Origin: Parcubacteria group bacterium GW2011_GWA2_40_14
GTDB taxonomy: Bacteria; Patescibacteriota; Minisyncoccia; Phycocordibacterales; DATDWN01
DNA length: 64,000 bases
Direction: 5' to 3'
Assembly: GCA_000996025.1 (NCBI GenBank)
Contig: LBYF01000001.1
Coordinates: 3,507 to 67,506 of the forward strand
The translations under genes were made by a program, and so were the position numbers. Under the pieces are notes generated by a model. It searched no databases and was not told the origin of the DNA. It worked only from the letters and a program-made list of their open reading frames with translations. Below, piece after piece: positions 22,007-50,503 of the stretch. Positions within the stretch are counted from its first letter, which is position 1, and every line of letters begins with the position of its first letter.

Positions 22007-22023
22007 AATTTTCATATAATAAA

Positions 22024-35893: not shown

Positions 35894-35905
35894 CCATAAT
35901 TTTCT

Positions 35906-36055: not shown

Positions 36056-36100
36056 TTTTTATTCGTATCCATTCGTGTTTTAATTCGTTATTTCGTATTT
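36056..36100. repeat. Family-1 repeat half-copy abutting the rpsS ATG
   Basis: The sequence is attcgtatccattcgtgttttaattcgttatttcgtatttATG. Confidence 0.65.
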
Positions 36101-36454: not shown

Positions 36455-36465
36455 CCGCGATACAA

Positions 36466-36545
36466 ATATGCGAATACATACGAATAAAACGAATAGAATA
36501 CAAGAAATGGAATTAATTTTCGTATCATTCGCATAAATTCGTATA
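36466..36545. repeat. Degenerate family-1 repeat upstream of rplV
   Basis: The tacgaata / attcgcata words are arranged palindromically. Confidence 0.5.
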
Positions 36546-36563
36546 TTGGTATCGATAAACTAT

Positions 36564-36962: not shown

Positions 36963-36973
36963 CTCTACCTACC
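36885..36973. repeat. Family-3 palindromic repeat overlapping the rplV 3' end
   Basis: The copy reads gagaatcgagaaccgagtaccgagaaacg...cgaaactcgtatctcgtatctcttaactct. Confidence 0.7.
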
Positions 36974-37633
36974 ATGACACATACCGTTCATCCATATTCA
37001 CATCGCCTAGGAATCATCCGAGATTGGAAATCTCGCTGGTTTGGCGTAAAAAATAAATACAAGGAATTTTTGAAAAGTGATGTGCTTTTACGGGAGTATT
37101 TGGAGAAAAAACTTCGTGATAACTATGTCAGCAATATAGAAATGGAGCGAGGTGAGAAAGTGTTGCGTATTATTATTGAGACATCTCGTCCAGGTATGAT
37201 TATTGGTCGCTCAGGTGATGGCGCCGTTAAATTAAAAAAGGATATTTCTGCATTTTTGAATAAACATAAACTTTCTCCTCTCGGCGAAGTGAAAGTGGAT
37301 ATAAAAGAAATTAAATCTCCCGAGTCAAACGCCACAATCGTTGCCCAAATGGTTGCCGATGGATTGGAAAAGCGTTTGCCTTTCCGCCGTGTGGTGAAAC
37401 AGATGGTGGAAAAAGTTATGGCAAATCGTGATGTCCTTGGTGTAAAGATAGAATTGTCTGGACGACTCGGTGGCGCTTCAATGGCACGTCAGGAAAAAAT
37501 AAAGAAAGGTCGTATTCCGCTTCAGACTTTCCGCGCCGATGTGGATTTTTGTAAATATAAAACAAGAGTCCCTTATGGGGGTGTTGGTATTAAGGTTTGG
37601 ATATATAAGGGAGAAGTGTTCGCAAAAAAGTAA
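36974..37633 (+). CDS. rpsC: 30S ribosomal protein S3
   Basis: The 219-aa ORF has a KH domain and the S3 C-terminus. Confidence 0.9.
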   Translation: MTHTVHPYSHRLGIIRDWKSRWFGVKNKYKEFLKSDVLLREYLEKKLRDNYVSNIEMERGEKVLRIIIETSRPGMIIGRSGDGAVKLKKDISAFLNKHKLSPLGEVKVDIKEIKSPESNATIVAQMVADGLEKRLPFRRVVKQMVEKVMANRDVLGVKIELSGRLGGASMARQEKIKKGRIPLQTFRADVDFCKYKTRVPYGGVGIKVWIYKGEVFAKK

Positions 37634-37721
37634 AAAGTTTGTAAAGTTATAAAGTTCATAAAGTAAAATCCATAATCCACTTTACAAACTTTAAAAACTT
37701 TCAACTTTATAAACTAAATTT
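37634..37721. repeat. Family-2 palindromic repeat between rpsC and rplP
   Basis: The copy reads aaagtttgtaaagttataaagttcataaagt ... ctttacaaactttaaaaactttcaactttataaact. Confidence 0.75.
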
Positions 37722-38138
37722 ATGTTGTTACCAAAAAAAGTAAAATACAGAAAGTGGCAAACATTTCGAAAGAACGCTAATAAAGTTGGTGTGGCTTCAC
37801 GTGGTACCACTATTTCTTTCGGCTCTCATGCCTTGAAAGCCCTGTCAGGAGCGCGTATTATGTCAAACCAGATTGAAGCTGGCAGAAAAGCCCTATCTCG
37901 CGCAGTTGGTAAGACCGGCAAGATTTGGATCCGCATTTTTCCAGATATGCCCCTGACCAAAAAGCCAGCTGAAGTGAAGCTTGGTAAAGGAAAGGGTGAT
38001 TTGTTTGGCTACTGCGCGCCGGTTAAGCCAGGAAGAATTATTTTTGAAGTTGATGGTGTTACGGATGCAGTTGCCAGAGAAGCTTTGCGAAAAGCTGGAA
38101 CGAAATTACCCCTCAAAACAAAGATAATCTCTCACTAG
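37722..38138 (+). CDS. rplP: 50S ribosomal protein L16
   Basis: [11 protein letters not shown]...GKGKGD is typical of L16. Confidence 0.9.
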
Positions 38139-38320
38139 AACTTCCAAATTATGACCAATGTGATTTTTCACAATTCAACTTCAGATTTTCCTCCTTACAG
38201 GAGCAGTACACCTTTTCGATCTTTTGAGTACAAAAACTCTGAAAAGGTCTTGCGAAGTCATACCCATGACTTCTCACTCGACCTTGGCCAAATTTGAAAG
38301 TTCTAGCCAAATGTGAAATT
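38139..38320. repeat. Family-5 element after rplP with 14-bp terminal inverted repeats (AGAACTTCCAAATT / AATTTGAAAGTTCT); it also supplies the rpmC leader motif GCCAAATGTGAAAT
   Basis: It has a terminal-inverted-repeat structure and shares its internal start AAATTATGACC with the copy at 43411. Confidence 0.7.
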
Positions 38321-38333
38321 TAGTGTATATTAA

Positions 38334-38537
38334 ATGAAATTTATGAAAGAGTTTACAAACAAAAGTAAAAAGGAACTACAGACAATACTTTCAGAAAAAA
38401 GACTAGCTTTGCGCACATTTCGCTTTTCCATAGCGGGTAGCAATATGCGCAATGTGAAAGAAGGTAGCGCACTGAAGAAAGATATTGCTATGGTGTTGAC
38501 TCTTTTGAATGTGAAAGCAAAAGTGAATAACGAATAA
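38334..38537 (+). CDS. rpmC: 50S ribosomal protein L29
   Basis: The helical ORF is 67 aa, begins KSKKELQTIL, and is in the expected operon position. Confidence 0.75.
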   Translation: MKFMKEFTNKSKKELQTILSEKRLALRTFRFSIAGSNMRNVKEGSALKKDIAMVLTLLNVKAKVNNE

Positions 38538-38543
38538 AGAATA

Positions 38544-38801
38544 ATGAATAATGAAAAAATAAAAAATAATACAGTAAAAACTCTCTCGGGAGTAGTAGTG
38601 TCAAATAAGATGACAGACACTGTTGTGGTGGAAGTTGTTCGTTTTGTAAAACATCCAAAGTACGGCAAGTACGTCTCTAAAAGCAAAAAGTTTAAAGCCC
38701 ACGATGTCGGCAATACAAAGCAAATTGGGGATAAGGTTACCATAGAGGAGTGCAGACCAATTTCAAAAGATAAACACTTTAGAATAGTCGAAAGTTCGTA
38801 A
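38544..38801 (+). CDS. rpsQ: 30S ribosomal protein S17
   Basis: [18 protein letters not shown]...HD is the S17 OB fold. Confidence 0.85.
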
Positions 38802-38878
38802 AGTTATAAAGTTCATAAAGCAGACTCAAAACCCACTTTACAAACTTTAAAAACTTTATAACTTTATAAACTAAAATT
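38802..38878. repeat. Family-2 palindromic repeat between rpsQ and rplN
   Basis: The copy reads gaaagttcgtaaagttataaagttcataaagc...ctttacaaactttaaaaactttataactttataaact. Confidence 0.75.
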
Positions 38879-39250
38879 ATGATCCAACCGCAATCAATTG
38901 TCAAAATAGCAGATAACACCGGAGCAAAAATCGGACGCGTGTTCAAAGTGCTCGGAAGTTCCAAAAAGAGATACGCCAGCATAGGCGAGTTGGTGGTTCT
39001 CTCTGTCCAGAAAGCTGAACCTAGAAAAACAACAAAGAAAAAAGATATTTTGTATGCAGTGGTTGTCCGTCAACGAGCGCCTTTTCGAAGAAAGGACGGC
39101 TCATATATTCGTTTTGACGAAAATGCAGTAGTTATAGTGGTCAAAGATAAAAAAGAGCCGGTAGCAGGACGTATTTTCGGTCCTATCCCGCGGGAACTTG
39201 GTGAGATGGGGTATCAAAAGATTATTAGTTTAGCCCCAGAAGTAGTCTAA
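38879..39250 (+). CDS. rplN: 50S ribosomal protein L14
   Basis: MIQPQSIVKIADNTGAK is typical of L14. Confidence 0.9.
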   Translation: MIQPQSIVKIADNTGAKIGRVFKVLGSSKKRYASIGELVVLSVQKAEPRKTTKKKDILYAVVVRQRAPFRRKDGSYIRFDENAVVIVVKDKKEPVAGRIFGPIPRELGEMGYQKIISLAPEVV

Positions 39251-39335
39251 AATTGAGTCAAGAGTAGCGAGATAAGAGTCACGAAGAATGCAAAATCGTA
39301 ACTCGAGTCTCGGAACTCGTAACTCTATCAATATC
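39251..39335. repeat. Family-3 palindromic repeat between rplN and rplX
   Basis: The copy reads gagtagcgagataagagtcacg...cgtaactcgagtctcggaactcgtaactct. It creates a spurious upstream ORF extension of rplX. Confidence 0.7.
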
Positions 39336-39602
39336 ATGAATGTAAAAAAAGATGACAAAGTAATAGTGCTCACCGGTAAAGACAAAGGTAAAACAGGAAC
39401 CGTTGTCAAATCATTTCCAAAAGAAAACAGAGTCATTGTTTCTGGTGTAAATATTTTGAAAGTTCATCAGAAGCCTCGAAAGAGTGGAGAGAAAGGACAG
39501 ATACTAGACAAGACCATGCCGATAGATGTATCCAACGTAAAAAGGGTCGAGGCACGAGGTACGAGAAAAGAGACCCGAAAAATCAAAGGCTCAAAATCGT
39601 AA
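39336..39602 (+). CDS. rplX: 50S ribosomal protein L24 with a repeat-encoded C-terminal tail
   Basis: MNVKKDDKVIVLTGKDKGK is the KOW domain. The track ORF starts 16 codons upstream, inside the repeat. Confidence 0.85.
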   Translation: MNVKKDDKVIVLTGKDKGKTGTVVKSFPKENRVIVSGVNILKVHQKPRKSGEKGQILDKTMPIDVSNVKRVEARGTRKETRKIKGSKS

Positions 39603-39637
39603 CTCTATACTCGTAACTCTTAACTCTATTAAAAACT
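39560..39637. repeat. Family-3 palindromic repeat overlapping the rplX 3' end
   Basis: The copy reads gtacgagaaaagagacccg...cgtaactctatactcgtaactcttaactct. Confidence 0.7.
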
Positions 39638-40234
39638 ATGGAATCAATCAAAGAAAAAACAAAAGAAGCTTTTGATATTATGAAATCGGAGTTTCATTAT
39701 AAAAACATCATGCAAGCCCCAAAAATAGAAAAGGTGGTGATTTCTTGTGGTGTTGGTTCGCAGAAAGACAAAAAGAAACTAGACCTTATAGAAGACCGCC
39801 TCTTAAAAATCACAGGACAGAAACCTGTTCGCAAGGGCGCAAAAATATCAATCGCCGCTTTCAAAGTGCGAGAAGGGGATACTGTCGGTATGCAAATCAC
39901 TTTGCGTGGACAGAGAATGTATGATTTTCTGGACCGATTGGTCAATATTGCACTTCCTCGCACGAAAGATTTTCGAGGAATCTCAGCAAATGCAGTTGAT
40001 GAAATGGGTAACTACACTTTAGGTATAAAAGAAAACACTATTTTCCCAGAGTCGTCCGATGAAGATTTGAAAGATGTTTTCGGTCTTGCCGTTACTATTG
40101 TTACAAATGTTAAAAACAAAGATGAGACAAAAGCTTTTTTGACTCACCTCGGTTTTCCCTTCAAAAAACAATCAGCCGATAAGGCGAAAGCTACGACAGT
40201 CCATGTATCAAAAAGCCGAGCCCCAAAGAAGTAA
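39638..40234 (+). CDS. rplE: 50S ribosomal protein L5
   Basis: The 198-aa ORF has L5 motifs and a basic C-terminal tail. Confidence 0.9.
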   Translation: MESIKEKTKEAFDIMKSEFHYKNIMQAPKIEKVVISCGVGSQKDKKKLDLIEDRLLKITGQKPVRKGAKISIAAFKVREGDTVGMQITLRGQRMYDFLDRLVNIALPRTKDFRGISANAVDEMGNYTLGIKENTIFPESSDEDLKDVFGLAVTIVTNVKNKDETKAFLTHLGFPFKKQSADKAKATTVHVSKSRAPKK

Positions 40235-40261
40235 AATTATTTTCATCTACAATAAATGGAA

Positions 40262-40310
40262 TTTTTTACTCATACACCTATCACACGCTATAGCGTGTGA
40301 TAGGTGTATG
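40262..40310. repeat. Family-7 perfect palindrome (20-bp stem, GCTATAGC centre)
   Basis: The sequence is actcatacacctatcacacgctatagcgtgtgataggtgtatgagt. Confidence 0.7.
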
Positions 40311-40424
40311 AGTTGAACAAGTTTTAATAGGTTTATATATTATTATGTGCTAATATTAATAATAGAAGTTGAGACAGTTTAGTCTCAATATATTTTGTCA
40401 GAAATCACGACTAAAGGAGAAAGT

Positions 40425-40664
40425 ATGAAGTCAAAGAGTTATCTTGGATTTTTGATGTTGTTGGCGTTGATGTTATTTTTGGTTTTGCTTCCGTCCGCAT
40501 TTTCAAGTGTCTATCAAAACACCGGAAACGGGTTGATTCCAGAGTGGACATTTGGAACAAAAACACAAGACCGTGTTGAGACAAACCAAAAGAAGGAGTG
40601 TTTTGAGACGGATGCAAAACAGCCATTCAAGTTTGATGTCTGTTATGTGCCAAACAGACCTTAG
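40425..40664 (+). CDS. Small secreted/membrane protein (signal-anchor) with an SD (AAGGAG)
   Basis: MKSKSYLGFLMLLALMLFLVLLPSAF is a hydrophobic N-terminus. The ORF is inserted between rplE and rpsN. Confidence 0.45.
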   Translation: MKSKSYLGFLMLLALMLFLVLLPSAFSSVYQNTGNGLIPEWTFGTKTQDRVETNQKKECFETDAKQPFKFDVCYVPNRP

Positions 40665-40937
40665 AGAAAGAAAGACGTTCCAGCTTCGACCTTGCCGAAC
40701 TTTTCTCTGCTGTAAAGTCCACGAACTATAAGGAGTTAAAACTTGTATTTGTGGCCACAAGTAGGAGTGGAGATGTAAGTAAAGTTGAATGCACATTCAA
40801 GTTTCAATGAACTGGGCGGGTGGATTTTCAAGGCGGTGAGGAGAGACCTGCCGCCTTTTTGTTTTGTTTGACAATTTGTGTGTATATATGGTAGTTTGTT
40901 TTTAGAATCAGTTCGTCAAAAACAGGGGGGATTATCG

Positions 40938-41912
40938 ATGTCAAAGACTCAACAGCTTGGCAAAAACATGAGTCCAAGCAAAACAAAACTGGGAAAGTTT
41001 TTACGAAAATGTCGTATTAAACTTGGATTAAGGCAAGTTGAAGTAGGCAGACTTTCAATGGTTAAACAATCAGACTACAGTCATTTTGAAACTGGTAGAT
41101 CCAAATATCTCAATCCCAAACAAATCAAAGGTTTAGCCAAAACTCTGAAGTGTCAAGAGGTGGAATTGGAAATTCTTGTTCCACCAAAACCAAAACCAAA
41201 ACAGGAACCTACAACTGAACTCGGCTTACTTATCCGCAACCGAAGGGAAGAGCTTGGGCTGACGATTGAGACTTTTGCCAAAAAGCTCAAAATATCCCTG
41301 GCACAAGCAAAATGTTTGGAAACCCGAATAGCCGAGCGAATGAAGTACAAGTTGTTTGAACCTCTTTTAAGAGTTCTGGAATTAAAACCGTCAGATTTAG
41401 GTAGATTTGTGGGCTGGACTAAAAACGAAAGCCTCACCAGTTTAGGTCAAGTCATCCGTTCACGCCGTAAAGAGCTTGGATTTTCGTTAGCAAGTCTTGG
41501 CCAGAAATTAGGTATCACTCGCGAGCGAGTACGTCAGATTGAGAATAATCGGTCTTCCTTTAGTAATAAAGGGAATAAACTTAAGAAGATAGCTAAAATT
41601 CTCAATCTGAATTTTTCTGAATTGCAAGCATTACAGCCGGCGCGGAGATTCAAAAGAGGCAAGATAGGTACCGACACATTTGGTGGGTTTCTGACTGCTC
41701 GGAGGGTAGAACTTCACCTGACACAATACGAACTTGCTGAACGTGTGGGAATTTCACCAAACACAATCTGTGCCACAGAATTAGGAAAATTTGTGCCTAA
41801 TTCCGATATGTTGGGAAAGATGGCGACGGCTCTTGACTGCGTTATTCCATCTCAACTCATTCTGATTCCTCGTAAGCGCGGTCGTCCTCGGAAGGATTTG
41901 ATTAACTCGTGA
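40938..41912 (+). CDS. Four-repeat XRE-type helix-turn-helix DNA-binding protein with a C-terminal AT-hook (RGRPRK)
   Basis: There are four HTH_XRE-like units (LRQVEVGRLS..., LTIETFAKKL..., FSLASLGQKLGITRERVRQIE..., LTQYELAERVGISPNTIC...), an SD (aggggg), and the ORF sits inside the spc operon. Confidence 0.7.
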   Translation: MSKTQQLGKNMSPSKTKLGKFLRKCRIKLGLRQVEVGRLSMVKQSDYSHFETGRSKYLNPKQIKGLAKTLKCQEVELEILVPPKPKPKQEPTTELGLLIRNRREELGLTIETFAKKLKISLAQAKCLETRIAERMKYKLFEPLLRVLELKPSDLGRFVGWTKNESLTSLGQVIRSRRKELGFSLASLGQKLGITRERVRQIENNRSSFSNKGNKLKKIAKILNLNFSELQALQPARRFKRGKIGTDTFGGFLTARRVELHLTQYELAERVGISPNTICATELGKFVPNSDMLGKMATALDCVIPSQLILIPRKRGRPRKDLINS

Positions 41913-41924
41913 CTGAACTGAATA

Positions 41925-41965
41925 GCCCGTGACCCTCTTTTGGGGTCATGGGCTCATTTATTTTC
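41925..41965 (+). terminator. Rho-independent terminator after the HTH gene (gcccgtgaccc / gggtcatgggc plus a T-run)
   Basis: The GC-rich stem is followed by a T-run. Confidence 0.65.
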
Positions 41966-42030
41966 ATTTGACTTTGTAGATTCTCTTTGCTACTATCTTT
42001 TGAGCTTGCAAAAGCTATTTTTTGTTAGAT

Positions 42031-42216
42031 ATGGCGAAAACATCCGTAAAAGCTAGAGCGGCAAAAGTGCCGAAATTTAAAACACGAGCTACAAATCGTT
42101 GTTTTAAATGCGGACGCGGACATGGATTTATGAGAGACTTCGGTCTATGCAGAATCTGTTTTAGGGAATTAGCAAACGAAGGCAAAATCCCCGGTGTTAA
42201 AAAGTCTAGCTGGTAA
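42031..42216 (+). CDS. rpsZ: 30S ribosomal protein S14, zinc-binding Z-type
   Basis: The 61-aa ORF has CFKCGR...CRICFR (two CxxC pairs). Confidence 0.85.
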
Positions 42217-42345
42217 CCAGAAAAATGTAAACTGTAAAAATCAAAATGGAAAATGACAGATTAAAATTAAAAATGATGAATTCAGAAATTTTGCATTTTA
42301 CATTGTCATTTTGATTTTTGATATTTACATTTTTAATTATATTTT
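42217..42345. repeat. Family-4 AT-rich ~120-bp palindromic repeat (core AGATTAAAATTAAAAATGATGAATTCAGAAATTTTGCATTTT)
   Basis: Three copies share an identical 42-nt core, and each ends at the next start codon. Confidence 0.8.
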
Positions 42346-42732
42346 ATGGACCCAATTGCAGACATGATTGTCCGAATAAAGAATGCATCAGATTCAAAGA
42401 AAAAATCTGTGGTTTTTCCACATTCAAAATTGAAACTGACTATTGCGGACGTTTTGATGAAAGAGGGATTTATAAAATCTTTCAGTAAGAAAGGCAAAAA
42501 ATTGATTAAGTTTATTGAAGTGGAGCTTATTCATACGGATGGCGTCCCAAGAATTCACGGAGTAGAGCGTGTATCAAAATCTTCCAAGAGGATTTATCAA
42601 AAATCTAAAGATATTCGAAAAGTTAAATCTGGAATGGGAGCTCTTGTACTTTCCACACCAAAAGGCATTATGACGGACAAGCAAGCAAGGATAGAAAATG
42701 TCGGTGGAGAAGCTCTCTTCAAAGTGTGGTAA
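42346..42732 (+). CDS. rpsH: 30S ribosomal protein S8
   Basis: MDPIADMIVRIKNA is typical of S8. Confidence 0.9.
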   Translation: MDPIADMIVRIKNASDSKKKSVVFPHSKLKLTIADVLMKEGFIKSFSKKGKKLIKFIEVELIHTDGVPRIHGVERVSKSSKRIYQKSKDIRKVKSGMGALVLSTPKGIMTDKQARIENVGGEALFKVW

Positions 42733-42864
42733 CACTTTGAAGAATGTAAAGTGTAAATATCAAAATGAAAAATTATAGATTAAAATTAAAAATGATGAAT
42801 TCAGAAATTTTGCATTTTACATTGTCATTTTACACTTCGATTTTTTAATTTTACATTTACTACC
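42733..42864. repeat. Family-4 repeat copy
   Basis: It has the same core as the copy at 42217. Confidence 0.8.
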
Positions 42865-43410
42865 ATGTCAAGAATCGGAAAAAAAGTAATAGCAATTCCT
42901 GAAAAGACCGAAGTATCCATAACTTACGGAATTTTCACCGTAAAAGGCCCGTTAGGAACTCTTACAAAAAAATTCAAGCCAGAAATTGAAATCACAATCG
43001 GGGCAAATGAAAAAAGTAGCGAAGTTAGACTTGTGCCAAAGCGTATAACTCTAGAGAACAAAGCTTTGTGGGGGACATACGCTTCTCATATTATGAATAT
43101 GATTTCTGGTGTAACTACCCCATACATTAAGAAATTGATTATTGAAGGTATTGGATACAAATCAGAAGTTAAGGGTGATAAACTTGTTCTTGCTCTCGGC
43201 TTTTCTCATCCTGTTATTGTTCCTATACCGGCGACACTTAAAGTTACTGCCGAGAAAAATATAATCACAGTAACTGGTATAGACAAAGAGGAGGTCGGTG
43301 GATTTGTGGCCAATATTCGCTCTCTCAAAGTACCAGAGCCATATAAAGGAAAAGGAATTAGGTATGAGGGGGAAGTAATCAAACGCAAGCAAGGCAAGAA
43401 AACTGCCTAA
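42865..43410 (+). CDS. rplF: 50S ribosomal protein L6
   Basis: MSRIGKKVIAIPEK is typical of L6. Confidence 0.9.
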   Translation: MSRIGKKVIAIPEKTEVSITYGIFTVKGPLGTLTKKFKPEIEITIGANEKSSEVRLVPKRITLENKALWGTYASHIMNMISGVTTPYIKKLIIEGIGYKSEVKGDKLVLALGFSHPVIVPIPATLKVTAEKNIITVTGIDKEEVGGFVANIRSLKVPEPYKGKGIRYEGEVIKRKQGKKTA

Positions 43411-43535
43411 ACTTTCAAATTATGACCCATCTCATCGTCTAAAATTTGAAAAAGAATCGTCACCTACGCACTCAGGTAGGCTCCAATTCTTTTTCAAATT
43501 TTATACGCGACCTAGGTCAAATTTGAAAGTTTAGG
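43411..43535. repeat. Family-5 element with a perfect 13-bp terminal inverted repeat (AAACTTTCAAATT / AATTTGAAAGTTT) and a central hairpin GTCACCTAC...GTAGGCTCC
   Basis: It has terminal inverted repeats, and its internal hairpin is shared with the copy at 56405. Confidence 0.75.
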
Positions 43536-43539
43536 TATC

Positions 43540-43899
43540 ATGGAAATTATGAAATCATCAAATGTAAAAAAAGAAAAGAGAATACGGAGACATGCCAGGA
43601 TTCGGGCAAAGATTTCTGGCACGGCGGATTTACCACGCTTATCGGTTTTCAAATCAAATAAACATATCTCCGTTCAACTTATTGATGACCAAAATGGACA
43701 AACGCTCGCTTCAGCTCACTCACGCGATGTTAAAGGTAAAACCATGATGGAAAAAGCAGGCGAGGTCGGACAGCTCATTGCCGAAAAAGCAAAAGCAAAA
43801 AAAATCACTGAAGTTGCCTTTGACCGCGGAGGATTTATTTATACAGGAAACATTAAAACACTGGCGGACGGAGCTAGGAAAGGAGGGTTACATTTTTAA
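43540..43899 (+). CDS. rplR: 50S ribosomal protein L18
   Basis: RRHARIRAKISGT...LSVFKSNKHI is typical of L18. Confidence 0.85.
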   Translation: MEIMKSSNVKKEKRIRRHARIRAKISGTADLPRLSVFKSNKHISVQLIDDQNGQTLASAHSRDVKGKTMMEKAGEVGQLIAEKAKAKKITEVAFDRGGFIYTGNIKTLADGARKGGLHF

Positions 43900-43908
43900 T
43901 TTATTATC

Positions 43909-44487
43909 ATGGAACCAGAAATACAAAAAGAAATAATAAACGAAGAAGTCATAGAAACACCTGTTGTAAAGGGTATTATTTCTGTACCTGCTATCCGTGA
44001 ATTCAGAAAGAATTCTCGCAAGCCATCTCCTCGTCGGGAAGGACGTGTCAAAGCGGAGTTTGACCAGAAAATTGTCAGCATCAGACGTGTTACTCGTGTT
44101 GTTACCGGTGGTCGTCGCTTTGCTTTCTCTGTCGGTATAGTTATCGGTGATAGAAAGGGCAGAGTGGGTGTTGGACAAGGAAAGGCCGGAGATACACCTC
44201 TTGCTATAGACAAAGCGGTACGCGATGCAAGAAAAAATATGATTAGAGTGGCTATGACAAAGAACTCCTCCATTTCTCACGAGGTGGATGCCAAGTTCGG
44301 GAGCTCTCGCGTTCTTATCATGCGAGCTCCGGGCAAGGGAATTCTAGCGGGTTCTTCTGTCCGAACAGTTCTGGAATTTGCCGGTGTAAAAGAAGTAAGC
44401 GCAAAGTTGTTTTCTAGGAGCAAAAATAAAGTAAACAATGCCAAAGCGGCCATTAAAGCTTTAGCACAGCTAAAGCCTAAAATGTAA
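43909..44487 (+). CDS. rpsE: 30S ribosomal protein S5
   Basis: The S5 dsRBD and C-terminal domain are present (RRVTRVVTGGRRF). Confidence 0.9.
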   Translation: MEPEIQKEIINEEVIETPVVKGIISVPAIREFRKNSRKPSPRREGRVKAEFDQKIVSIRRVTRVVTGGRRFAFSVGIVIGDRKGRVGVGQGKAGDTPLAIDKAVRDARKNMIRVAMTKNSSISHEVDAKFGSSRVLIMRAPGKGILAGSSVRTVLEFAGVKEVSAKLFSRSKNKVNNAKAAIKALAQLKPKM

Positions 44488-44602
44488 AATTTAAAAATCA
44501 AAATGGAAAATGACAGATTAAAATTAAAAATGATGAATTCAGAAATTTTGCATTTTGTATTGTCATTTTAATTTTTGATATTTACATTTTTAATTTATTA
44601 TC
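44488..44602. repeat. Family-4 repeat copy (in the position where rpmD/L30 would normally sit)
   Basis: It has the same core as the copy at 42217. Confidence 0.8.
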
Positions 44603-45043
44603 ATGCAATCCCATAACTTAAAAAGAAATCACCCGAACAAAAAGTCCCGACAAAAAGGTCGTGGCGGTACTCGTGGCAAGACAGCTGGTCGTGGTACAAA
44701 AGGCCAAAATGCCAGAGCTGGACACAAAAAACGTCCGGAAATTCGCGATTTTATAAAACGAATACCAAAGCTTCGCGGTCGTGGTAAAAATATAAACACA
44801 AGCATCCAAAACAAACCTTCTGTTGTTAATGTTGGAGATTTGAATAAAATGTTTAAGGCGGGAGATATCGTATCACCTCAAACACTTCTAAAAAATGGTA
44901 TGGTTAAGATGTTCGCTGGTGTTCTGCCGAGAGTAAAAATTCTTGCTACTGGAGCTTTGGATAAAATCCTTATAATAAAAGATTGCCAAGTTTCAGCATC
45001 TGCAAAGGTCGCTATAGAAAAAGCAGGTGGGCAGATAGTTTAA
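44603..45043 (+). CDS. rplO: 50S ribosomal protein L15
   Basis: GRGGTRGKTAGRGTKGQ is the L15 glycine/arginine signature. Confidence 0.85.
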   Translation: MQSHNLKRNHPNKKSRQKGRGGTRGKTAGRGTKGQNARAGHKKRPEIRDFIKRIPKLRGRGKNINTSIQNKPSVVNVGDLNKMFKAGDIVSPQTLLKNGMVKMFAGVLPRVKILATGALDKILIIKDCQVSASAKVAIEKAGGQIV

Positions 45044-46407: not shown

Positions 46408-47022
46408 ATGTATATGGACAGAGGAGAAGAATACAAAAAAAGGCTAAAAGACTTTCTAGATTCTGATACTACAGAAGCAAAAATTGCAATGGTGGCTCTT
46501 TGTGTATTTGCTGTAGCCTCCCTCCCCATTCTCGTGGTTGGGGTTGCGGCTATGGGTAATGTGGTGCAGACGTTTCAGATGTTTAAGAGGTCTAAAAAGT
46601 ATTCTAGAATGCAAATTCAAAGCGCGGTTGAAAGTACTAAGCGTCAAAAGCTTATAGAATATGTTACTGACAAAGACGGAAAAACAATAGTAAAAATTAC
46701 AAAGAAAGGTGAAACTAAGTTAAGAACTTTTGACATTGAGCTTATGTGTATTAATACGCCAAAGAAATGGGATGGTAAATGGAGATTGGTCATGTTTGAT
46801 ATTCCTATGCGATTTACAAAAGGCAGAGAAGCTCTGAGATATCATTTGAAAAATTTAGGTTTTCTCCAATTTCAGAAATCCGCATGGATACACCCTTTTC
46901 CTTGTGAAGATGAAATCTTGTTTATTGCCGATTTTTTTGGAATAGGGAAGCACGTGGAAATTTTAACTGTAGAAAATCTCTTAAACGACGAAAAATTAAA
47001 GAAACATTTCCGACTTGATTAG
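46408..47022 (+). CDS. Membrane-anchored PaaX C-terminal-domain-like (Cas2/VapD-fold) protein
   Basis: There is an N-terminal TM. KKWDGKWRLVMFDIPMRFTKGREALRYHLKNLGFLQFQKSAWIHP matches the PaaX_C W-G-W motif region. Confidence 0.5.
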   Translation: MYMDRGEEYKKRLKDFLDSDTTEAKIAMVALCVFAVASLPILVVGVAAMGNVVQTFQMFKRSKKYSRMQIQSAVESTKRQKLIEYVTDKDGKTIVKITKKGETKLRTFDIELMCINTPKKWDGKWRLVMFDIPMRFTKGREALRYHLKNLGFLQFQKSAWIHPFPCEDEILFIADFFGIGKHVEILTVENLLNDEKLKKHFRLD

Positions 47023-47098
47023 TTTTTTTCTTACATAAGATTACAGCATATGCAGAAAAGTTATTAATTATACAAATCATATAAATTGAAACAATGTT

Positions 47099-47845
47099 TT
47101 GCAAGTTGTGGTTTCCGACATTCTTATACAAGACATAAATGACCAGAAAGAGTTTTTCTGCTATACTTATTTAAGTATGTTTATATGGAATCTATTAGTT
47201 AAAAATTTTCCTGAATACTGTGAATCAGTAGCTGGCTTTTGGACGGTTGAACCACTGAACGCACTAACTAACTTCGCGTTTTTTATCGGAGCATATTATT
47301 TATTGAAATATATCCGTGTTAATAATTTAAAAAACCGCTTAAGCATTTTCTTGACAGGATTAATGGTAGTTATGGGATTAGGCAGTCTATTGTGGCATTC
47401 GTATAGATCAGAAATAACGATGTTGCTTGATACCTTGCCGATTTACATTTTCTTTATTTTAGCCCTTTATCTTTTTGTACAGGTTCTTACAAAAAATAAA
47501 AAACTTACCATTGTTATTTTGGCTTTATTAGGATTAATATATTATTTAATTTTTACTTATATTCCTGGTCTAAATATTTTTAGTGGTTCACTAAAGTATA
47601 TTTTTATTCTTATAGTTTTAGTAGCATTAAGTTTTTTTATAAGAAAGAAGTATGGATATGATTATAACTTTTTAACACCACTAGGCATCTTTTTAGTGGC
47701 GATAATGTTAAGGACGATTGATATTTTTATGTGTCCATTTTTCCCATTCGGAACTCATTTTATATGGCATATTTTGATTGCAATAGCTATGTATTTCGGT
47801 TCAACTCTAATTTTGCGTTTAAATGCTAAAATGAATCAAGTCTGA
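47099..47845 (+). CDS. Polytopic membrane protein (7-TM, possibly ceramidase-like hydrolase)
   Basis: This is a hydrophobic ORF with conserved His residues (WHSYRSE, THFIWHIL). The family assignment is uncertain. Confidence 0.35.
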   Translation: MQVVVSDILIQDINDQKEFFCYTYLSMFIWNLLVKNFPEYCESVAGFWTVEPLNALTNFAFFIGAYYLLKYIRVNNLKNRLSIFLTGLMVVMGLGSLLWHSYRSEITMLLDTLPIYIFFILALYLFVQVLTKNKKLTIVILALLGLIYYLIFTYIPGLNIFSGSLKYIFILIVLVALSFFIRKKYGYDYNFLTPLGIFLVAIMLRTIDIFMCPFFPFGTHFIWHILIAIAMYFGSTLILRLNAKMNQV

Positions 47846-47863
47846 TTAACAATTTCAATTCTC

Positions 47864-48184
47864 GTGTTTTTGGTGTATAATAAAGAAATGAAATTAAGTA
47901 TTGAGGAAATAAAAGAAAAAATAACTCCGATTTTGGAGAAGTACGGCGTGACTTACGCCGGTGTTTTCGGTAGTGTGGCGCGCGGTGATGCTCGTCCGGA
48001 CAGTGACGTGGATATTCTCGTTAAAATCCGTAATCCCATTAGCATATTCGTCTTTTTTAAGATGAATGATGAATTGGAAGAAATATTGGGACGAAAGGTG
48101 GATTTAGTGACGGAAAACTCTCTTATTCGTTATTTCAAGCCATATGTGATGCTTGATTTAAAGCCACTCTATGAAGTCAGATAA
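47864..48184 (+). CDS. Nucleotidyltransferase antitoxin MntA (minimal NTase)
   Basis: GVFGSVARGDARPDSDVDILV is the pol-beta-type NTase signature. Confidence 0.8.
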   Translation: MFLVYNKEMKLSIEEIKEKITPILEKYGVTYAGVFGSVARGDARPDSDVDILVKIRNPISIFVFFKMNDELEEILGRKVDLVTENSLIRYFKPYVMLDLKPLYEVR

Positions 48185-48488
48185 AGTATACTGCGAATAT
48201 ATTATCAGTTGTATAGATAAAGTTGGCCGTTTTACTTCTGGAATGAAACGAGAGGATTTTCTTGCAAGTGAGTTAGTGCAAAGTGCAGTAATCTTGCAAC
48301 TCCTTCTTATTGGTGAATTGTCAAAAAATTTATCGTCTGAATTTAAGAAAAGTACTGATTTGCCTTGGACACAAATTTCCGGTTTCCGAAATAGAGCAAT
48401 CCATAATTATTATGAACTTGAGCTGGAATTCGTTTGGTTTGCAGTTCAAAATGATTTGTTTCCTATTAAAGAAGCTGTCTCCAAATAA
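48171..48488 (+). CDS. HepT (DUF86) HEPN-family toxin
   Basis: RNRAIHNY matches the R-x4-H-x-Y HEPN motif. The gene overlaps the NTase gene by 14 nt. Confidence 0.8.
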   Translation: MKSDKVYCEYIISCIDKVGRFTSGMKREDFLASELVQSAVILQLLLIGELSKNLSSEFKKSTDLPWTQISGFRNRAIHNYYELELEFVWFAVQNDLFPIKEAVSK

Positions 48489-48493
48489 AAATC

Positions 48494-49084
48494 ATGTCTC
48501 CTCAAACTTTTATTTTTATCGGCAGGTCCGGGTGTGGTAAAGGAACACAGGCCGAGCTTTTACAAAAACGGGTCAAAGAAAAAGACCAATCGAGTGAGAT
48601 TTTTTATCTTGAAACTGGAGCATATTTCAGAGAGTTTTTAAGGGGAGAAAAATATTCAAATAAATTAGCAAATGAAATATATAAAAAAGGCGAGCGCCAG
48701 CCGGACTTTCTGGCTGTGCATATTTGGTCGCATATTCTTATCGGAGATTTCAAAGGCACAGAGCACGCATTTTTTGACGGTATTTGCCGCTCTCTTCCGG
48801 AAGCCACCACTTTTACCACTGCTTTGGAGTTTTATGGACGCAAAGCCATTGTAATTTATCTGAATGTTTCGCGGGAATGGTCGGAGGAGCGCCTTCTTCT
48901 CCGCGGGCGAGCAGATGACAAGAGTAAGGAAGAAATAAAAAAACGACTTGACTGGTTTGATAAAGATTCGTATCCTGCAGTAGAGTATTTTAATATGCAC
49001 AAACAATATACTCTTTTGGATATAAACGGCGAGCAGAGTATAGAAAAGGTACATGCCGATATTGTAGGGAAGCTGGGATGGTAG
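48494..49084 (+). CDS. adk: Adenylate kinase (short-LID type)
   Basis: The P-loop is GRSGCGKGTQ, the LID is short (RGRADD), and the gene is in the expected operon position. Confidence 0.7.
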   Translation: MSPQTFIFIGRSGCGKGTQAELLQKRVKEKDQSSEIFYLETGAYFREFLRGEKYSNKLANEIYKKGERQPDFLAVHIWSHILIGDFKGTEHAFFDGICRSLPEATTFTTALEFYGRKAIVIYLNVSREWSEERLLLRGRADDKSKEEIKKRLDWFDKDSYPAVEYFNMHKQYTLLDINGEQSIEKVHADIVGKLGW

Positions 49085-49129
49085 CAAAACCCTTGACTTC
49101 TGTATATACTCCGCATATACTGTGTATAT

Positions 49130-49399
49130 ATGACACAAGTAGTTATAAATTTCAAAACGGATGCTAAGCTAAAGAGCGCAGCCAAAGATGTTCTCGATGA
49201 GATGGGTCTGAATTTTTCCATTGCTTTTAACGCCTACATGAAAAAGTTGATTACTGAGAGGAGAATAGAGTTTACCACGCCAGAGATACCCAACGCTCGA
49301 CTCCGGAAAGCAATAAAAGAGGCGGATAAAGAGTATAAGAGCGGTAAGTTAAAGTTTTATACTGATATGCGCGAGATGCGCAAGTCATTAGGTGTATAA
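49130..49399 (+). CDS. RelB/DinJ-family antitoxin
   Basis: The small RHH-like protein immediately precedes a YafQ-like toxin. Confidence 0.6.
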   Translation: MTQVVINFKTDAKLKSAAKDVLDEMGLNFSIAFNAYMKKLITERRIEFTTPEIPNARLRKAIKEADKEYKSGKLKFYTDMREMRKSLGV

Positions 49400-49402
49400 A
49401 CT

Positions 49403-49663
49403 ATGCACATCGCTTTTTCTTCGAGTCTTAATAAAAAGATTAAGAAAATTCCAACAAAAATAGTTGATAAATTTTTTGAGCGATTGGAGATTTTTAAAAA
49501 GGATATATTTAGTCCAATTTTAAACAATCATAAATTGCACGCTGAATACGAAGGGTGTAGCAGTATAAATGTCACAGGTAATTTTCGAGCGATATTTAAG
49601 CATGTCGATGATAATCATGTCGTTTTTTCTGATTTAGATACTCACCCCGAACTCTACGGCTAA
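49403..49663 (+). CDS. YafQ/RelE-family mRNA interferase toxin
   Basis: The C-terminus HKLHAEYEGCSSINVTGNFRAIFKHVDDNHVVFSDLDTHPELYG parallels the YafQ C-terminus. Confidence 0.65.
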   Translation: MHIAFSSSLNKKIKKIPTKIVDKFFERLEIFKKDIFSPILNNHKLHAEYEGCSSINVTGNFRAIFKHVDDNHVVFSDLDTHPELYG

Positions 49664-49679
49664 TTTTTATTTTTGAATT

Positions 49680-50447
49680 ATGATTACAATAAAAAAACCA
49701 GAAGAAATAGAAATTTTGAAAGAAGGCGGGAGACGGCTTGGTATTGTTTTGCGCAAAGTAAGCGAGATTGTCAAACCAGGCATTTCTACACAGGAACTTG
49801 AGGACTTGGCACGCAAACTGATAGAAGATGGTGGTGATACCGCATCATTTCTAAATTACAAACCGCGTGGAGCAAAACGGCCGTTTCCTGCGGCCATATG
49901 TGTGTCCATAAACAACGAAATCGTTCACGGTATTCCCAACGAAAGGCCACGCATAATTCAAGAGGGCGACATTGTTTCTCTTGATTTAGGTATTACACAC
50001 AAAGGTATAATAACAGACAGTGCCGTGTCTGTGGGTGTTGGTAAAATGGCGCCTATTGACCAGAAGCTGATAGACCATTGCAGGGAAGCTTTAGCACTCG
50101 GTATCAAGGCCGCTCGCGGCGGTAATCACATAGGCGATATTGGCTATGCAATAGAGTCGTTTGCCCGCCCTCTGGGCTACGGGCTATCAGAGGGGCTTGC
50201 AGGACATGGGGTTGGTTACAAGGTTCACGAAGACCCATTTGTGCCAAACGAAGGGGAAATCGGTAGAGGCGAGCTTCTGCGTCCAGGTATGGTCCTAGCC
50301 CTTGAGCCGATGCTGACTCTCGGCACAGACAAAATAGTTCTAGACAAAGATGGCTATACATACAAAACCGCCGATGGTACAAACGCCGCCCACTGGGAAC
50401 ATTCTATTGTCATCACGGAAGGAGAGCCGATAATTTTGACAAAATAA
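49680..50447 (+). CDS. map: Methionine aminopeptidase type I
   Basis: The pita-bread metal ligands are in typical context (D..D, H, E, E). Confidence 0.9.
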   Translation: MITIKKPEEIEILKEGGRRLGIVLRKVSEIVKPGISTQELEDLARKLIEDGGDTASFLNYKPRGAKRPFPAAICVSINNEIVHGIPNERPRIIQEGDIVSLDLGITHKGIITDSAVSVGVGKMAPIDQKLIDHCREALALGIKAARGGNHIGDIGYAIESFARPLGYGLSEGLAGHGVGYKVHEDPFVPNEGEIGRGELLRPGMVLALEPMLTLGTDKIVLDKDGYTYKTADGTNAAHWEHSIVITEGEPIILTK

Positions 50448-50503
50448 ATATTTAAACATACAAATAGTTGCTTTTCAGAGAAATATGATTTACTATACGT
50501 TAC

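What the first reader, a model, noticed from the sequence alone, without database searches (positions are those of the whole stretch)
42217..44602. Family-4: three ~120-bp AT-rich palindromes with an identical 42-nt core occupy spc-operon spacers, one where rpmD would normally be
The spacers rpsN-rpsH, rpsH-rplF and rpsE-rplO each hold a copy with the identical core AGATTAAAATTAAAAATGATGAATTCAGAAATTTTGCATTTT, flanked by inverted arms (aaaatgtaaa...tcaaaatggaaaatgacag / ctgtcattttga...tttacatttt). Each copy runs right up to the next ATG. The third copy sits between rpsE and rplO, where L30 is encoded in most bacteria. Very high identity implies recent spread or strong selection.
Basis: seen in the sequence. 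Interest (0 to 1): 0.7.

Follow-up and report, generated by a model that had tools for sequence, protein, structure and literature searches.

The report
Miniature IVS-like cassettes in spc operon
Three near-identical hairpin-forming inserts between ribosomal-protein genes of a groundwater CPR bacterium are gutted, gene-less copies of a widespread selfish gene cassette (the kind otherwise known as 'intervening sequences' in 23S rRNA), not a regulatory RNA and not a stand-in for the missing L30 gene.

Summary
Three 108-115-nt AT-rich imperfect palindromes with an identical 42-nt centre fill the rpsN|rpsH, rpsH|rplF and rpsE|rplO spacers. A 24-nt solo 3' end lies at rplR|rpsE. Seven independent assemblies carry all three copies, so they are not an artefact.

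The copies are lineage-specific insertions. Related Zambryskibacteria-like genomes have 5-47 nt at rpsH|rplF and 1-31 nt at rpsE|rplO. None of them has L30, so the 'rpmD slot' is a coincidence.

A degenerate arm pattern hits at least 120 metagenome contigs. The 430-500-nt members carry, between the same arms, a 123-aa PF05635/TIGR02436 four-helix-bundle gene ('23S rRNA intervening-sequence protein', S23p). Its start codon lies inside the 5' arm. Family-4 is that cassette minus about 325 nt of ORF interior. The 'core' is the deletion junction, and a 22-codon ORF stub remains.

So these are ORF-less miniatures of an IVS-like selfish cassette that colonises stop/start junctions in CPR bacteria. 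I found no target-site duplication, no transposase, no covariation and no Rfam match.

The way it works is inferred, not shown: a co-transcribed hairpin that is probably an RNase III substrate, tolerated because it brings stop codons in all three frames and leaves the next start codon just past the stem.

The parts
42224..42331 (+). Family-4 copy 1 (rpsN|rpsH spacer). The 5' arm starts AATGTAAA and the 3' arm ends TTTACATT. A/T extensions reach 42221-42338.
   Evidence: Arm models built without the window copies score E 1.5e-8 (5' arm) and 2.2e-9 (3' arm).
42743..42857 (+). Family-4 copy 2 (rpsH|rplF spacer). Its 3' arm has 7 nt more (ACACTTC) than copies 1 and 3, and its arms are closest to the wider family consensus.
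44481..44588 (+). Family-4 copy 3 (rpsE|rplO spacer). The rpsE stop codon TAA (44485-44487) lies inside the 5' arm.
42258..42299 (+). The identical 42-nt 'core' of copy 1 (also at 42777-42818 and 44515-44556). It consists of codons ~5-13 of the former four-helix-bundle ORF, the deletion junction, and the first bases after the former stop codon.
   Evidence: alignment A4 with ORF-bearing cassettes
42246..42314 (+). Remnant ORF of copy 1: MENDRLKLKMMNSEILHFTLSF*. Its first 9 codons match the MENDxVKFK start of the 123-aa PF05635 proteins. Copy 2 stub: 42765-42848 (27 codons). Copy 3 stub: 44503-44571 (22 codons).
   Evidence: sequence
43888..43911 (+). Solo 3' end of a Family-4 element at the rplR|rpsE junction. 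TTACATTTTTAATTTATTATCATG is identical to the last 24 nt of the copy 3 region. It recodes the L18 C-terminus as GLHF*, where relatives have GL[K/E/Q]F*.
   Evidence: family D10
42228..42256 (+). Stop codons in all three reading frames inside the 5' arm of copy 1: TAA 42228, TAA 42235, TGA 42254. Any upstream ORF that reads into the element is therefore closed quickly.
   Evidence: sequence. Across the family, upstream stops often lie 2, 7 or 14 nt inside the arm.
42717..42742 (+). Perfect 10-bp inverted duplication around the rpsH stop codon, CTTCAAAGTG-TGGTAA-CACTTTGAAG, directly abutting copy 2. The right half is an inverted copy of the last rpsH codons. It is absent in relatives.
   Evidence: sequence

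Best explanation
WHAT IT IS (shown). The three palindromes, and a fourth solo 3' end, are ORF-less internal-deletion derivatives of a selfish gene cassette that is widespread in CPR/Patescibacteria. The intact cassette is about 430-500 nt. It carries a 123-aa four-helix-bundle gene (Pfam PF05635 '23S rRNA intervening-sequence protein'/S23p, NCBIfam TIGR02436). The gene is bracketed by about 50-nt AT-rich inverted arms built of heptamer repeats, and its start codon lies inside the 5' arm. Family-4 keeps both arms and roughly the first 13 codons and has lost about 325 nt of ORF. All window copies share the same junction, so one gutted progenitor was copied within this genome. The copies were inserted, in this lineage only, exactly at stop/start junctions of the spc operon.

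HOW IT WORKS (inferred).
- The element has no promoter or terminator of the local type, so it is transcribed as part of the operon mRNA.
- Its arms fold into a long A-U hairpin. By analogy with rRNA intervening sequences that carry the same gene family, this hairpin is probably cut out by RNase III. I put that step at about 50%.
- It is tolerated in tightly coupled ribosomal-protein junctions for three reasons. The entry arm supplies stop codons in all three frames. The hairpin brings the upstream stop and the downstream start together. The exit arm leaves an A/U-rich, Shine-Dalgarno-less leader of 7-14 nt before the next ATG.
- I expect little or no benefit to the host.
- How the DNA moves is unknown. 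There is no target duplication and no transposase. The four-helix-bundle protein or host recombination are the candidates.
For: - Reality and lineage specificity.
- The arm pattern AATGTAAANTNTAAANATCAAAATG, which fits all three copies, hits at least 120 metagenome contigs. These are 117 distinct insertions in hosts of 29-58% GC.
- 80 of 123 hits have the inverted partner arm. Most elements are 75-180 nt, and a separate class is 430-500 nt.
- The long class encodes a 122-125-aa ORF that starts 22 nt into the arm. It matches PF05635 at E 1e-17 to 1e-18 and TIGR02436 at E 5e-22, and PDB 2RLD.
- Alignment A4 shows Family-4 collinear with three ORF-bearing cassettes at both ends, with one ~325-column gap. 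Other miniatures have other breakpoints: L130 keeps ~9 codons and L114 ~17.
- Models built only from the foreign elements, or only from the three ORF-bearing cassettes, find exactly the three window copies at E 1e-5 to 1e-11 and nothing else in 64 kb.
- The protein is 74-85% identical across Magasanikbacteria, Moranbacteria, Kerfeldbacteria and Parcubacteria, in 4487 clusters. That fits horizontal spread.
- Family context: 43 elements sit stop|element|start, 11 sit stop|element|stop, and 0 sit start|element|start. About 12% of junctions in the same contigs are divergent.
- The arm end lies 0-11 nt from the next ATG in most cases, and upstream stops are often inside the arm.
- The stem register is 81% paired, against 38-55% when the partner is slid.
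- The + strand folds better than the - strand in all three copies.
- Precedent: the Coxiella IVS is 428 nt, has a 28-bp terminal stem, heptamer repeats before the S23p ATG, and is excised by RNase III (PMC4990558).
Against: - No ORF-bearing copy is present in the window. The rest of this genome could not be read, so a master copy and the genome-wide copy number are unknown.
- The three copies lie within 2.4 kb. Local duplication or gene conversion is as likely as transposition.
- There is no target-site duplication, no transposase in 64 kb, and no known mobility function for PF05635 proteins.
- There is no covariation in the arms. Shuffles do as well as the real data, RNAalifold finds no consensus on 33 members, and the three copies show no compensatory pair. 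Sequence rather than structure may be what is conserved.
- Hairpins of copies 2 and 3 are only weakly better than shuffles (z -1.3 and -1.7).
- The 42-55-nt centre is more conserved than the arms, roughly p 0.002 under uniform rates by my own estimate. My explanation, faster slippage in the heptamer arms, is only an inference.
- RNase III cleavage, co-transcription and neutrality are untested.
Confidence: 0.75

Rival explanations
1. Internal promoter modules. The 3' arm would carry an outward-facing sigma-70-type promoter (TTGTCA or TTTACA, 17 nt, TACATT). This would restart transcription just before the next gene and give very short-leadered or leaderless mRNAs.
For: - All three copies have a 9/12 match with a 17-nt spacer on the + strand, at 42303-42331, 42829-42857 and 44560-44588.
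- In copy 2 the 7-nt insertion recreates a -35-like TTTACA at exactly 17 nt.
- Across the family the arm, which ends in this -10-like hexamer, lies a median of 6-7 nt from the ATG. That is the usual -10 to +1 distance.
Against: - Promoter-like hits in the region are not enriched over shuffles: 15 observed against 9.5 +/- 3.4. The sequence is very AT-rich.
- Promoters that look real in this clade read TTGACT-17-TAnnAT, with a 25-35-nt leader (41968-41996 and the equivalent sites in relatives).
- The 6-7-nt distance is equally well explained by the original short spacers of 1-18 nt.
- The elements avoid divergent, promoter-bearing spacers and always follow a stop codon. That fits passengers in transcripts.
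Confidence: 0.1
2. A host cis-regulatory RNA of the spc operon. The hairpins would be functional intercistronic structures selected in this organism, for example a translational-coupling device, a segmental mRNA stabiliser, or a ribosomal-protein binding site.
For: - The copies sit in four consecutive junctions of one operon, all in the sense orientation.
- The sense strand folds better than the antisense strand.
- The geometry places the upstream stop and the downstream start at the base of the stem.
- The centre is perfectly conserved.
Against: - The element is absent from the same spacers in all relatives, which manage with 1-47 nt.
- The same element family sits next to unrelated genes and between tRNA genes in more than 100 other organisms.
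- There is no covariation and no Rfam family.
- The sequence derives from a protein-coding cassette.
Confidence: 0.08
3. A classical MITE. This would be a non-autonomous derivative of an insertion sequence, moved in trans by a DDE transposase that recognises the terminal inverted repeats.
For: - The element is small, has no intact gene, and has terminal inverted repeats (AAAAATGTAAA / TTTACATTTTT).
- It is multicopy, and presence or absence varies between species.
Against: - There is no target-site duplication, in the window or in 65 family members compared with a permuted control.
- The longer relatives encode a four-helix-bundle protein, not a transposase.
- No transposase is encoded in the window.
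Confidence: 0.04
4. A small-protein gene. The 22-27-codon ORF that runs through the core would be expressed and functional.
For: An ATG-started ORF is intact in all three copies, at 42246-42314, 42765-42848 and 44503-44571. It could also serve as a relay ORF for re-initiation.
Against: - It is the N-terminal stub of the PF05635 gene fused to the non-coding 3' arm.
- Copy 2 has E2K and D4Y and loses the stop, adding 5 residues. Copy 3 has T19V. There is no sign of purifying selection.
- Other miniatures of the family have other junctions or no ORF at all.
Confidence: 0.02
5. An assembly artefact, in which a repeat was copied into three places or collapsed.
For: One megahit contig (L003) misjoins copy 2 to copy 3. 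This shows that the repeat does confuse assemblers.
Against: - Seven independent assemblies from different samples and pipelines have the same three copies in the same places.
- The copies differ from one another by 4-15% outside the core.
Confidence: 0.01

Closest known systems
Intervening sequences (IVS) of bacterial 23S rRNA that carry an S23p ORF (Coxiella burnetii, Leptospira, Brucella; Warrier et al. 2016, PMC4990558)
   Same: - The cargo gene family is the same (PF05635 four-helix bundle).
- The size is the same: 428 nt in Coxiella against 429-449 nt for the intact CPR cassettes.
- Both have terminal inverted repeats that close the element into a long stem.
- Both have heptamer repeats around the start codon.
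- Both are selfish, horizontally spread elements embedded in a highly expressed transcript.
- ORF decay is seen in both.
   Different: - The CPR elements lie in intercistronic spacers of protein-coding operons and between tRNA genes, not in helix 9, 25 or 45 of 23S rRNA.
- The arms are longer (about 35-50 bp), very AT-rich and have periodic mismatches.
- The start codon is inside the stem.
- ORF-less 75-180-nt miniatures are the majority.
- RNase III excision has not been tested here.
Bacterial MITEs in transcribed spacers: Neisseria Correia elements and enterobacterial ERIC/IRU repeats (from my own knowledge; general review PMC10969869 was seen in a search listing only)
   Same: - They are 100-150-nt imperfect palindromes without a gene.
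- They are inserted between co-transcribed genes, often touching stop or start codons.
- They fold into RNA hairpins that can be RNase III or RNase E targets and can carry promoter-like hexamers.
- They are species-specific in position.
   Different: - Correia and ERIC elements make TA target duplications and are thought to derive from IS elements.
- Family-4 has no duplication, and its parent carries a four-helix-bundle gene instead of a transposase.
REP / REPIN elements with RAYT transposases (PMC3116915, PMC3337134; seen in a search listing)
   Same: Both are extragenic palindromic repeats found after stop codons, in operons, and avoiding promoter regions. A REPIN is likewise a long hairpin of about 100 nt.
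   Different: - REPs are short GC-rich hairpins present in hundreds of copies, with a conserved GTAG head and a RAYT gene flanked by them.
- None of these features was seen here.
RNase III processing hairpins between cistrons of phage T7 early mRNA (Dunn and Studier 1973, as cited in PMC4990558)
   Same: This is how Family-4 may work: a long intercistronic stem cut by RNase III, turning a polycistronic RNA into separate messages.
   Different: - The T7 sites are evolved phage signals of about 60 nt, not mobile repeats.
- Cleavage of Family-4 is only an inference.
Avd, the accessory protein of diversity-generating retroelements (same Pfam family PF05635; PMC10053308 was seen in a search listing)
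   Same: The protein is a homologous four-helix bundle, and CPR genomes are rich in such proteins.
   Different: No reverse transcriptase, template repeat or variable repeat accompanies the cassettes seen here.

Membership tests
rRNA intervening sequence (IVS) with S23p ORF | Inserted in a helix of the 23S (or 16S) rRNA gene | tested here: not met
   All three copies lie between ribosomal-protein genes. Family members lie between protein genes or tRNA genes.
rRNA intervening sequence (IVS) with S23p ORF | Terminal inverted repeats that close the element into a long stem | tested here: met
   - In a gapless register 38-41 of 57 positions are Watson-Crick pairs.
- The consensus hairpin has 43 pairs.
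- Across the family a 35-bp register is 81% paired, against 38-55% when slid.
rRNA intervening sequence (IVS) with S23p ORF | Encodes a PF05635 / S23p four-helix-bundle protein | tested here: not met
   - Family-4 keeps only about 13 codons.
- Its 430-500-nt relatives do encode the protein (PF05635 E 1e-17 to 1e-18; TIGR02436 E 5e-22).
rRNA intervening sequence (IVS) with S23p ORF | Excised from the transcript by RNase III | not testable with these tools
   This needs RNA end mapping or an in vitro RNase III assay.
MITE (miniature inverted-repeat transposable element) | Small, without an intact gene, with terminal inverted repeats, and in several copies | tested here: met
MITE (miniature inverted-repeat transposable element) | Flanked by a target-site duplication | tested here: not met
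   None is present at the three window copies. Among 65 family members there is no excess over permuted flanks.
MITE (miniature inverted-repeat transposable element) | Deletion derivative of a longer element that encodes a transposase | tested here: not met
   It is a deletion derivative of a longer element. However, the gene of that element is a four-helix-bundle protein with no known transposase activity.
REP / REPIN-RAYT | Short GC-rich REP hairpins with a GTAG head, paired as REPINs, and a RAYT (Y1 transposase) gene in the genome | tested here: not met
   - The arms are about 15-20% G+C and are not themselves hairpins.
- There is no Y1 transposase among the window proteins.
- The rest of the genome was not available.
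Any curated RNA family (Rfam 15) | Score at or above the gathering threshold of a covariance model | tested here: not met
   Only tmRNA passes in the window. No hit touches the three copies even at E up to 10.
Ribosomal-protein autoregulatory leader or mRNA mimic | Conserved at the same operon position in related species, with structure-preserving changes | tested here: not met
   It is absent from the same spacers in relatives, and there is no covariation.
Integron attC site | A single imperfect palindrome downstream of the cassette ORF, next to an integrase and in a cassette array | tested here: not met
   In the intact relatives the two arms lie on either side of the ORF. No integrase is encoded in the window.

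The most novel reading that the evidence does not exclude
Family-4 would be the visible tip of an undescribed class of CPR mobile cassettes. In this reading, S23p/Avd-like four-helix-bundle genes are bracketed by heptamer-repeat inverted arms. They insert, without target duplication, exactly at stop/start junctions of co-transcribed genes. They bring stop codons in all frames on entry and a restart context on exit. They spawn gene-less miniatures that can fill ribosomal-protein operons. They would be the mRNA counterpart of rRNA intervening sequences and would be cut out by RNase III, so these operons would be expressed from processed pieces. The four-helix-bundle protein would be the long-sought mobility or RNA-handling factor of IVS elements.
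Probability: 0.3. Interest if true: 0.8.

Novelty: new variant of a known kind. Interest (0 to 1): 0.6.

Why it matters
Intervening sequences with an S23p gene have been known in 23S rRNA since about 1990, yet no origin, mobility mechanism or protein function has been established (PMC4990558).

This work shows that the same gene family travels in a palindromic cassette that is common and diverse in CPR bacteria. The cassette lands in operon junctions rather than in rRNA, and it repeatedly decays to hairpin-only miniatures.

This gives a large natural data set for working out how such elements move and what the protein does. I saw at least 117 independent insertions, and the protein search returned 4487 clusters at E up to 1e-10.

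It also explains why some CPR ribosomal-protein operons have 100-130-nt spacers, when these operons are normally the most compact and conserved part of a genome. It raises a testable question about how translational coupling and stoichiometry survive such inserts.

There are two practical consequences. These repeats break and misjoin metagenome assemblies inside marker-gene operons, as in contig L003. They can also be mistaken for regulatory RNAs.

Tried and rejected
- **Core in public collections.** The exact 22-mer of the core gave 0 hits in genome contigs, metagenome contigs and viral contigs. In hindsight this is because the core is a junction private to this species. Those collections also appear to lack the Rifle contigs found, because the first metagenome scan missed them.
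- **Rfam.** Neither the gathering threshold nor E up to 10 gave a hit on the copies.
- **Terminator.** The only good terminator is at 41924-41954, upstream of rpsN. None lies in the elements.
- **Transposase or RAYT.** Pfam scans of 40 window proteins found none.
- **Intact four-helix-bundle gene in the window or close relatives.** tblastn and hmmsearch found none.
- **Family-4 in relatives.** nhmmer on 11 related loci found nothing.
- **Covariation.** The three copies have 0 compensatory pairs. RNAalifold predicts no structure on 33 family members. Counts on a hand-set register are not above shuffles.
- **Target-site duplication and insertion into the tip of a host hairpin.** Neither exceeds permuted controls.
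- **IHF-site consensus in the arms.** No match on inspection.
- **Operator sites for the neighbouring 4xHTH protein (40878-41912).** I considered this and have no evidence beyond adjacency. The element family occurs in many genomes without that gene.
- **Literature.** Searches for CPR palindromic repeats, MITEs, hairpins, or PF05635 together with Patescibacteria found no description.
Full report
**1. Observation**

The repeat extends to about 117 nt. The copies at 42222-42338, 42741-42857 and 44479-44595 are 86-96% identical. No fourth full copy exists in the 64 kb by blastn or nhmmer.

Each copy is an imperfect palindrome whose axis is the GAATTC at 42278-42283. In a gapless register 38-41 of 57 positions are Watson-Crick pairs, plus 2-5 G:T pairs. 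RNAalifold draws one 43-pair hairpin for the three copies, with no compensatory change.

As RNA the sense strand folds to -29.0, -19.3 and -20.0 kcal/mol, with z-scores of -4.1, -1.3 and -1.7. The antisense strand is weaker in every copy.

The flanking genes are S14, S8, L6, L18, S5, L15 and SecY (precomputed Pfam hits).

**2. Not an artefact; the organism**

The S8 protein is identical to that of Parcubacteria group bacterium GW2011_GWF2_39_8b, from the Rifle aquifer. The next relatives are 82% identical or less and include Candidatus Zambryskibacteria.

Nine contigs from JGI, ENA and NCBI assemblies carry this S8. Seven of them hold all three copies at the same places and are at least 99.6% identical to the window. 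One ends before copy 3. One (L003, megahit) jumps from copy 2 to copy 3 and drops three essential genes, which is a repeat-induced misjoin.

**3. Lineage-specific insertions; L30 is a red herring**

I compared the spacers in related genomes (loci L010-L019).

| Junction | Window | Relatives |
|---|---|---|
| rpsH\|rplF | 132 nt | 5, 18, 11, 44 and 43 nt |
| rpsE\|rplO | 115 nt | 1, 6, 10, 13 and 31 nt |

None of the relatives has L30. CPR bacteria commonly lack L30 (bioRxiv 10.1101/2022.01.07.475337). nhmmer finds no Family-4 sequence in these loci.

The inserts changed their neighbours:
- S5 ends ..KPKM*, with its stop codon inside the 5' arm. Relatives end ..KK* or ..RK*.
- L18 ends GLHF*, where relatives have GL[K/E/Q]F*.
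- The last 12 nt of rplR, the 9-nt spacer and the rpsE ATG (43888-43911) are identical to the 3' end of the copy 3 region. A solo 3' end therefore sits at a fourth junction.
- Next to copy 2, the last ten coding bases of rpsH are repeated in inverted form just after the stop codon (42717-42742).

**4. What it is not**

- No Rfam family matches, even at E up to 10.
- There is no intrinsic terminator in the elements.
- Each copy has a 9/12 sigma-70-like match (TTGTCA or TTTACA, 17 nt, TACATT). Such matches are not enriched over shuffles in this AT-rich region. Convincing promoters in the clade look different (TTGACT-17-TAnnAT).
- No transposase is found among 40 window proteins.
- No target-site duplication is present.

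**5. The key result**

The exact core is found nowhere else. These represent 117 distinct insertions in hosts of 29-58% G+C.

Eighty of 123 hits have the inverted partner arm. Most elements are 75-180 nt, and a separate class is 430-500 nt. That class holds a 122-125-aa ORF whose ATG lies 22 nt into the 5' arm: MENDxVKFKNEFKKRLYxWVLRLIKFI..GKQLLRSGTSILANYIEANSASSKKDF... It matches PF05635 '23S rRNA intervening-sequence protein' (E 1e-17 to 1e-18), TIGR02436 'four helix bundle protein' (E 5e-22) and PDB 2RLD.

In an alignment with three such cassettes, Family-4 is collinear at both ends and lacks about 325 columns of ORF interior:
- 5' side: AATGTAAA..ATCAAA ATG GAA AAT GAC AGA .. AAA AAT GA. 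GAA TTC A
- 3' side: ATTTTGCATTTTACATTGTCATTTT..GAT..TTTACATTTT

Other miniatures have other breakpoints. L130 keeps about 9 codons and L114 about 17.

Models built without the window copies, or from the three ORF-bearing cassettes alone, recover exactly the three window copies (E 1e-5 to 1e-11) and nothing else.

The 'identical core' is thus the deletion junction. All three copies share this junction, so one gutted progenitor was copied within this genome.

**6. Properties of the family**

- The protein is 74-85% identical in Magasanikbacteria, Moranbacteria, Kerfeldbacteria and Parcubacteria, among 4487 clusters at E up to 1e-10. That suggests horizontal spread (inference).
- Of the elements with classifiable flanks, 43 lie stop|element|start, 11 lie stop|element|stop, and none lies between divergent starts. 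Twelve percent of junctions in the same contigs are divergent.
- The upstream stop codon often lies 2, 7 or 14 nt inside the arm. The arm carries stops in all three frames (42228, 42235 and 42254 in copy 1).
- The arm end lies mostly 0-11 nt before the next ATG.
- There is no target duplication and no excess of inverted flanks.
- A 35-bp arm register is 81% paired, against 38-55% when slid. Covariation does not exceed shuffles, and mismatches recur at the variable position of each heptamer.
- Other PF05635 subfamilies have different arms that are also built of heptamers. One sits just before rplI.

**7. How it most likely works**

Shown: the descent from the cassette, the lineage-specific insertion at stop/start junctions, the hairpin potential, the stops in all frames, the short A/U-rich leader, and the absence of local promoter or terminator signals.

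Inferred:
- The element is transcribed with the operon.
- The long stem is an RNase III substrate, as in the Coxiella IVS. That element is 428 nt, has a 28-bp terminal stem and heptamer repeats before the S23p ATG, and is excised by RNase III (PMC4990558).
- The insert is tolerated because the stem keeps the upstream stop and the downstream start together. A ribosome terminating at the stem base would open the strand that lies just upstream of the next ATG.
- The host gains little or nothing.

How the DNA moves is unknown. That the centre is better conserved than the arms (roughly p 0.002 under uniform rates, my estimate) may reflect slippage in the heptamer arms. This point is unexplained rather than shown.

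**8. Rivals**

| Rival | Confidence |
|---|---|
| Outward promoter | 0.10 |
| Host regulatory RNA | 0.08 |
| Classical transposase-driven MITE | 0.04 |
| Small-protein gene | 0.02 |
| Assembly artefact | 0.01 |

The evidence for and against each is given in the Rival explanations section.

**9. Comparison with known elements, and novelty**

The closest known kind is the rRNA intervening sequence with an S23p ORF. It shares the cargo family, the size, the terminal stem and the heptamers. Family-4 fails two defining features: it is not in rRNA, and it has no intact ORF.

It behaves like Correia or ERIC-type MITEs but has no target duplication and no transposase parent. It is not a REP/REPIN.

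I found no paper that describes PF05635 cassettes with inverted arms, or their miniatures, in CPR operon junctions. I therefore rate it a new variant of a known kind.

**10. Limits**

- Only 64 kb of this genome, plus flanks, could be read. The genome-wide copy number and a possible master copy are unknown.
- ORF calls in the foreign contigs are crude.
- Nothing about RNA processing, transcription or mobility was measured.

Noticed in passing
window 43411-43536 (rplF|rplR); also 38139-38310 (rplP|rpmC) and 31222-31340 (after tuf); loci L012-L020: A different element of about 125 nt, folded as a nested hairpin: AACTTCCAAATT..TCACCTAC-GCACTCAG-GTAGGCTCC..AAATTTGAAAGTT.
- It is conserved across species and sits at different junctions, always in the gene orientation.
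- Nine copies give 42 pairs, and 19 of these have compensatory changes.
- The exact 25-mer of its apex is found in 6 GTDB species.
- There is no Rfam family for it.
- It looks like a genuinely structured mobile or regulatory RNA, and it lies inside the coordinates of the finding.
   Followed up: partly
window 32899-45043 (rpsJ to rplO): About 14 of 20 gene junctions of the S10-spc cluster hold a palindromic element of one of at least five families. The arm motifs are GAGTAAC.., AAAGTTATA.., ACGAAATAACGAAT.., the nested hairpin described in the first item of this list, and Family-4. Relatives have far fewer, and different, occupants. Copies of several families also occur in other CPR contigs.
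   Followed up: partly
window 34349-34432, 36884-36967, 33618-33701, 39545-39628: Elements of the GAGTAAC/CTCGTAACTCTA family are read through by the upstream ORFs (L4, L22, L3, L24). The stop codon is the TAA of ..CGTAACTCTA, so up to about 26 C-terminal residues of ribosomal proteins are encoded by a repeat.
   Followed up: no
window 40235-42030 (between rplE and rpsN): The spc operon is interrupted by an insert.
- It encodes an 89-aa ORF and a 344-aa protein with four XRE-type HTH domains (40878-41912).
- A strong terminator follows at 41924-41954, and then a promoter-like site (TTGACT-17-TACTAT, 41968-41996) before rpsN.
- The insert differs between strains, with HTH proteins of 273-344 aa.
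- Relatives carry other cargo at the same place, for example a reverse transcriptase in L012.
   Followed up: partly
loci L010, L012, L013, L014, L016 and L019, just upstream of rpsH: All relatives share a motif, GAGATACTnnC..GATATAATA, in the rpsN|rpsH spacer. It is absent from the whole window, where Family-4 copy 1 fills the spacer. It could be an S8-related leader or a promoter that this species has lost.
   Followed up: partly
window 42002-42017 and the equivalent sites in L010, L013 and L014: A small hairpin in the rpsN leader (GAGCTTGCAAAAGCT) is conserved in relatives, with pair-preserving changes (GAGCCTTAAGGGCTT in L014).
   Followed up: no
window 31761-31798 and 40272-40309: Two copies (95% identical) of a perfect 38-nt palindrome, ATACACCTATCA[T/C]ACGCTATAGCGT[A/G]TGATAGGTGTAT. 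One lies after the 63-aa ORF upstream of rpsJ and the other just after rplE. Other perfect palindromes without a loop lie at 22016-22071, 17683-17720 and 2424-2468.
   Followed up: no
window 46408-50949 (between secY and the genes after map): The distal spc region is loaded with accessory genes: a PaaX/Cas2-like protein, a ceramidase-like membrane protein, a nucleotidyltransferase/HepT toxin-antitoxin pair, and RelB, interleaved with adk and map. An AbiEii toxin gene follows at 52843-53472.
   Followed up: no
locus L003 (ENA ERZ27254763 k141_551385): This contig joins Family-4 copy 2 to copy 3 and thereby deletes rplF-rplR-rpsE. It also has a different upstream context. It is an example of these repeats causing misassembly inside a phylogenetic marker operon.
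   Followed up: partly
window 61444-61842 (- strand): A tmRNA gene (Rfam RF00023, 76.9 bits). ARAGORN reported no tRNA or tmRNA in the window.
   Followed up: no
loci L028 and L057: A short member of the Family-4 superfamily sits between two tRNA genes, directly after a ..CCACCA 3' end. The cassettes therefore also colonise stable-RNA operons, which brings them closer to the rRNA IVS situation.
   Followed up: no
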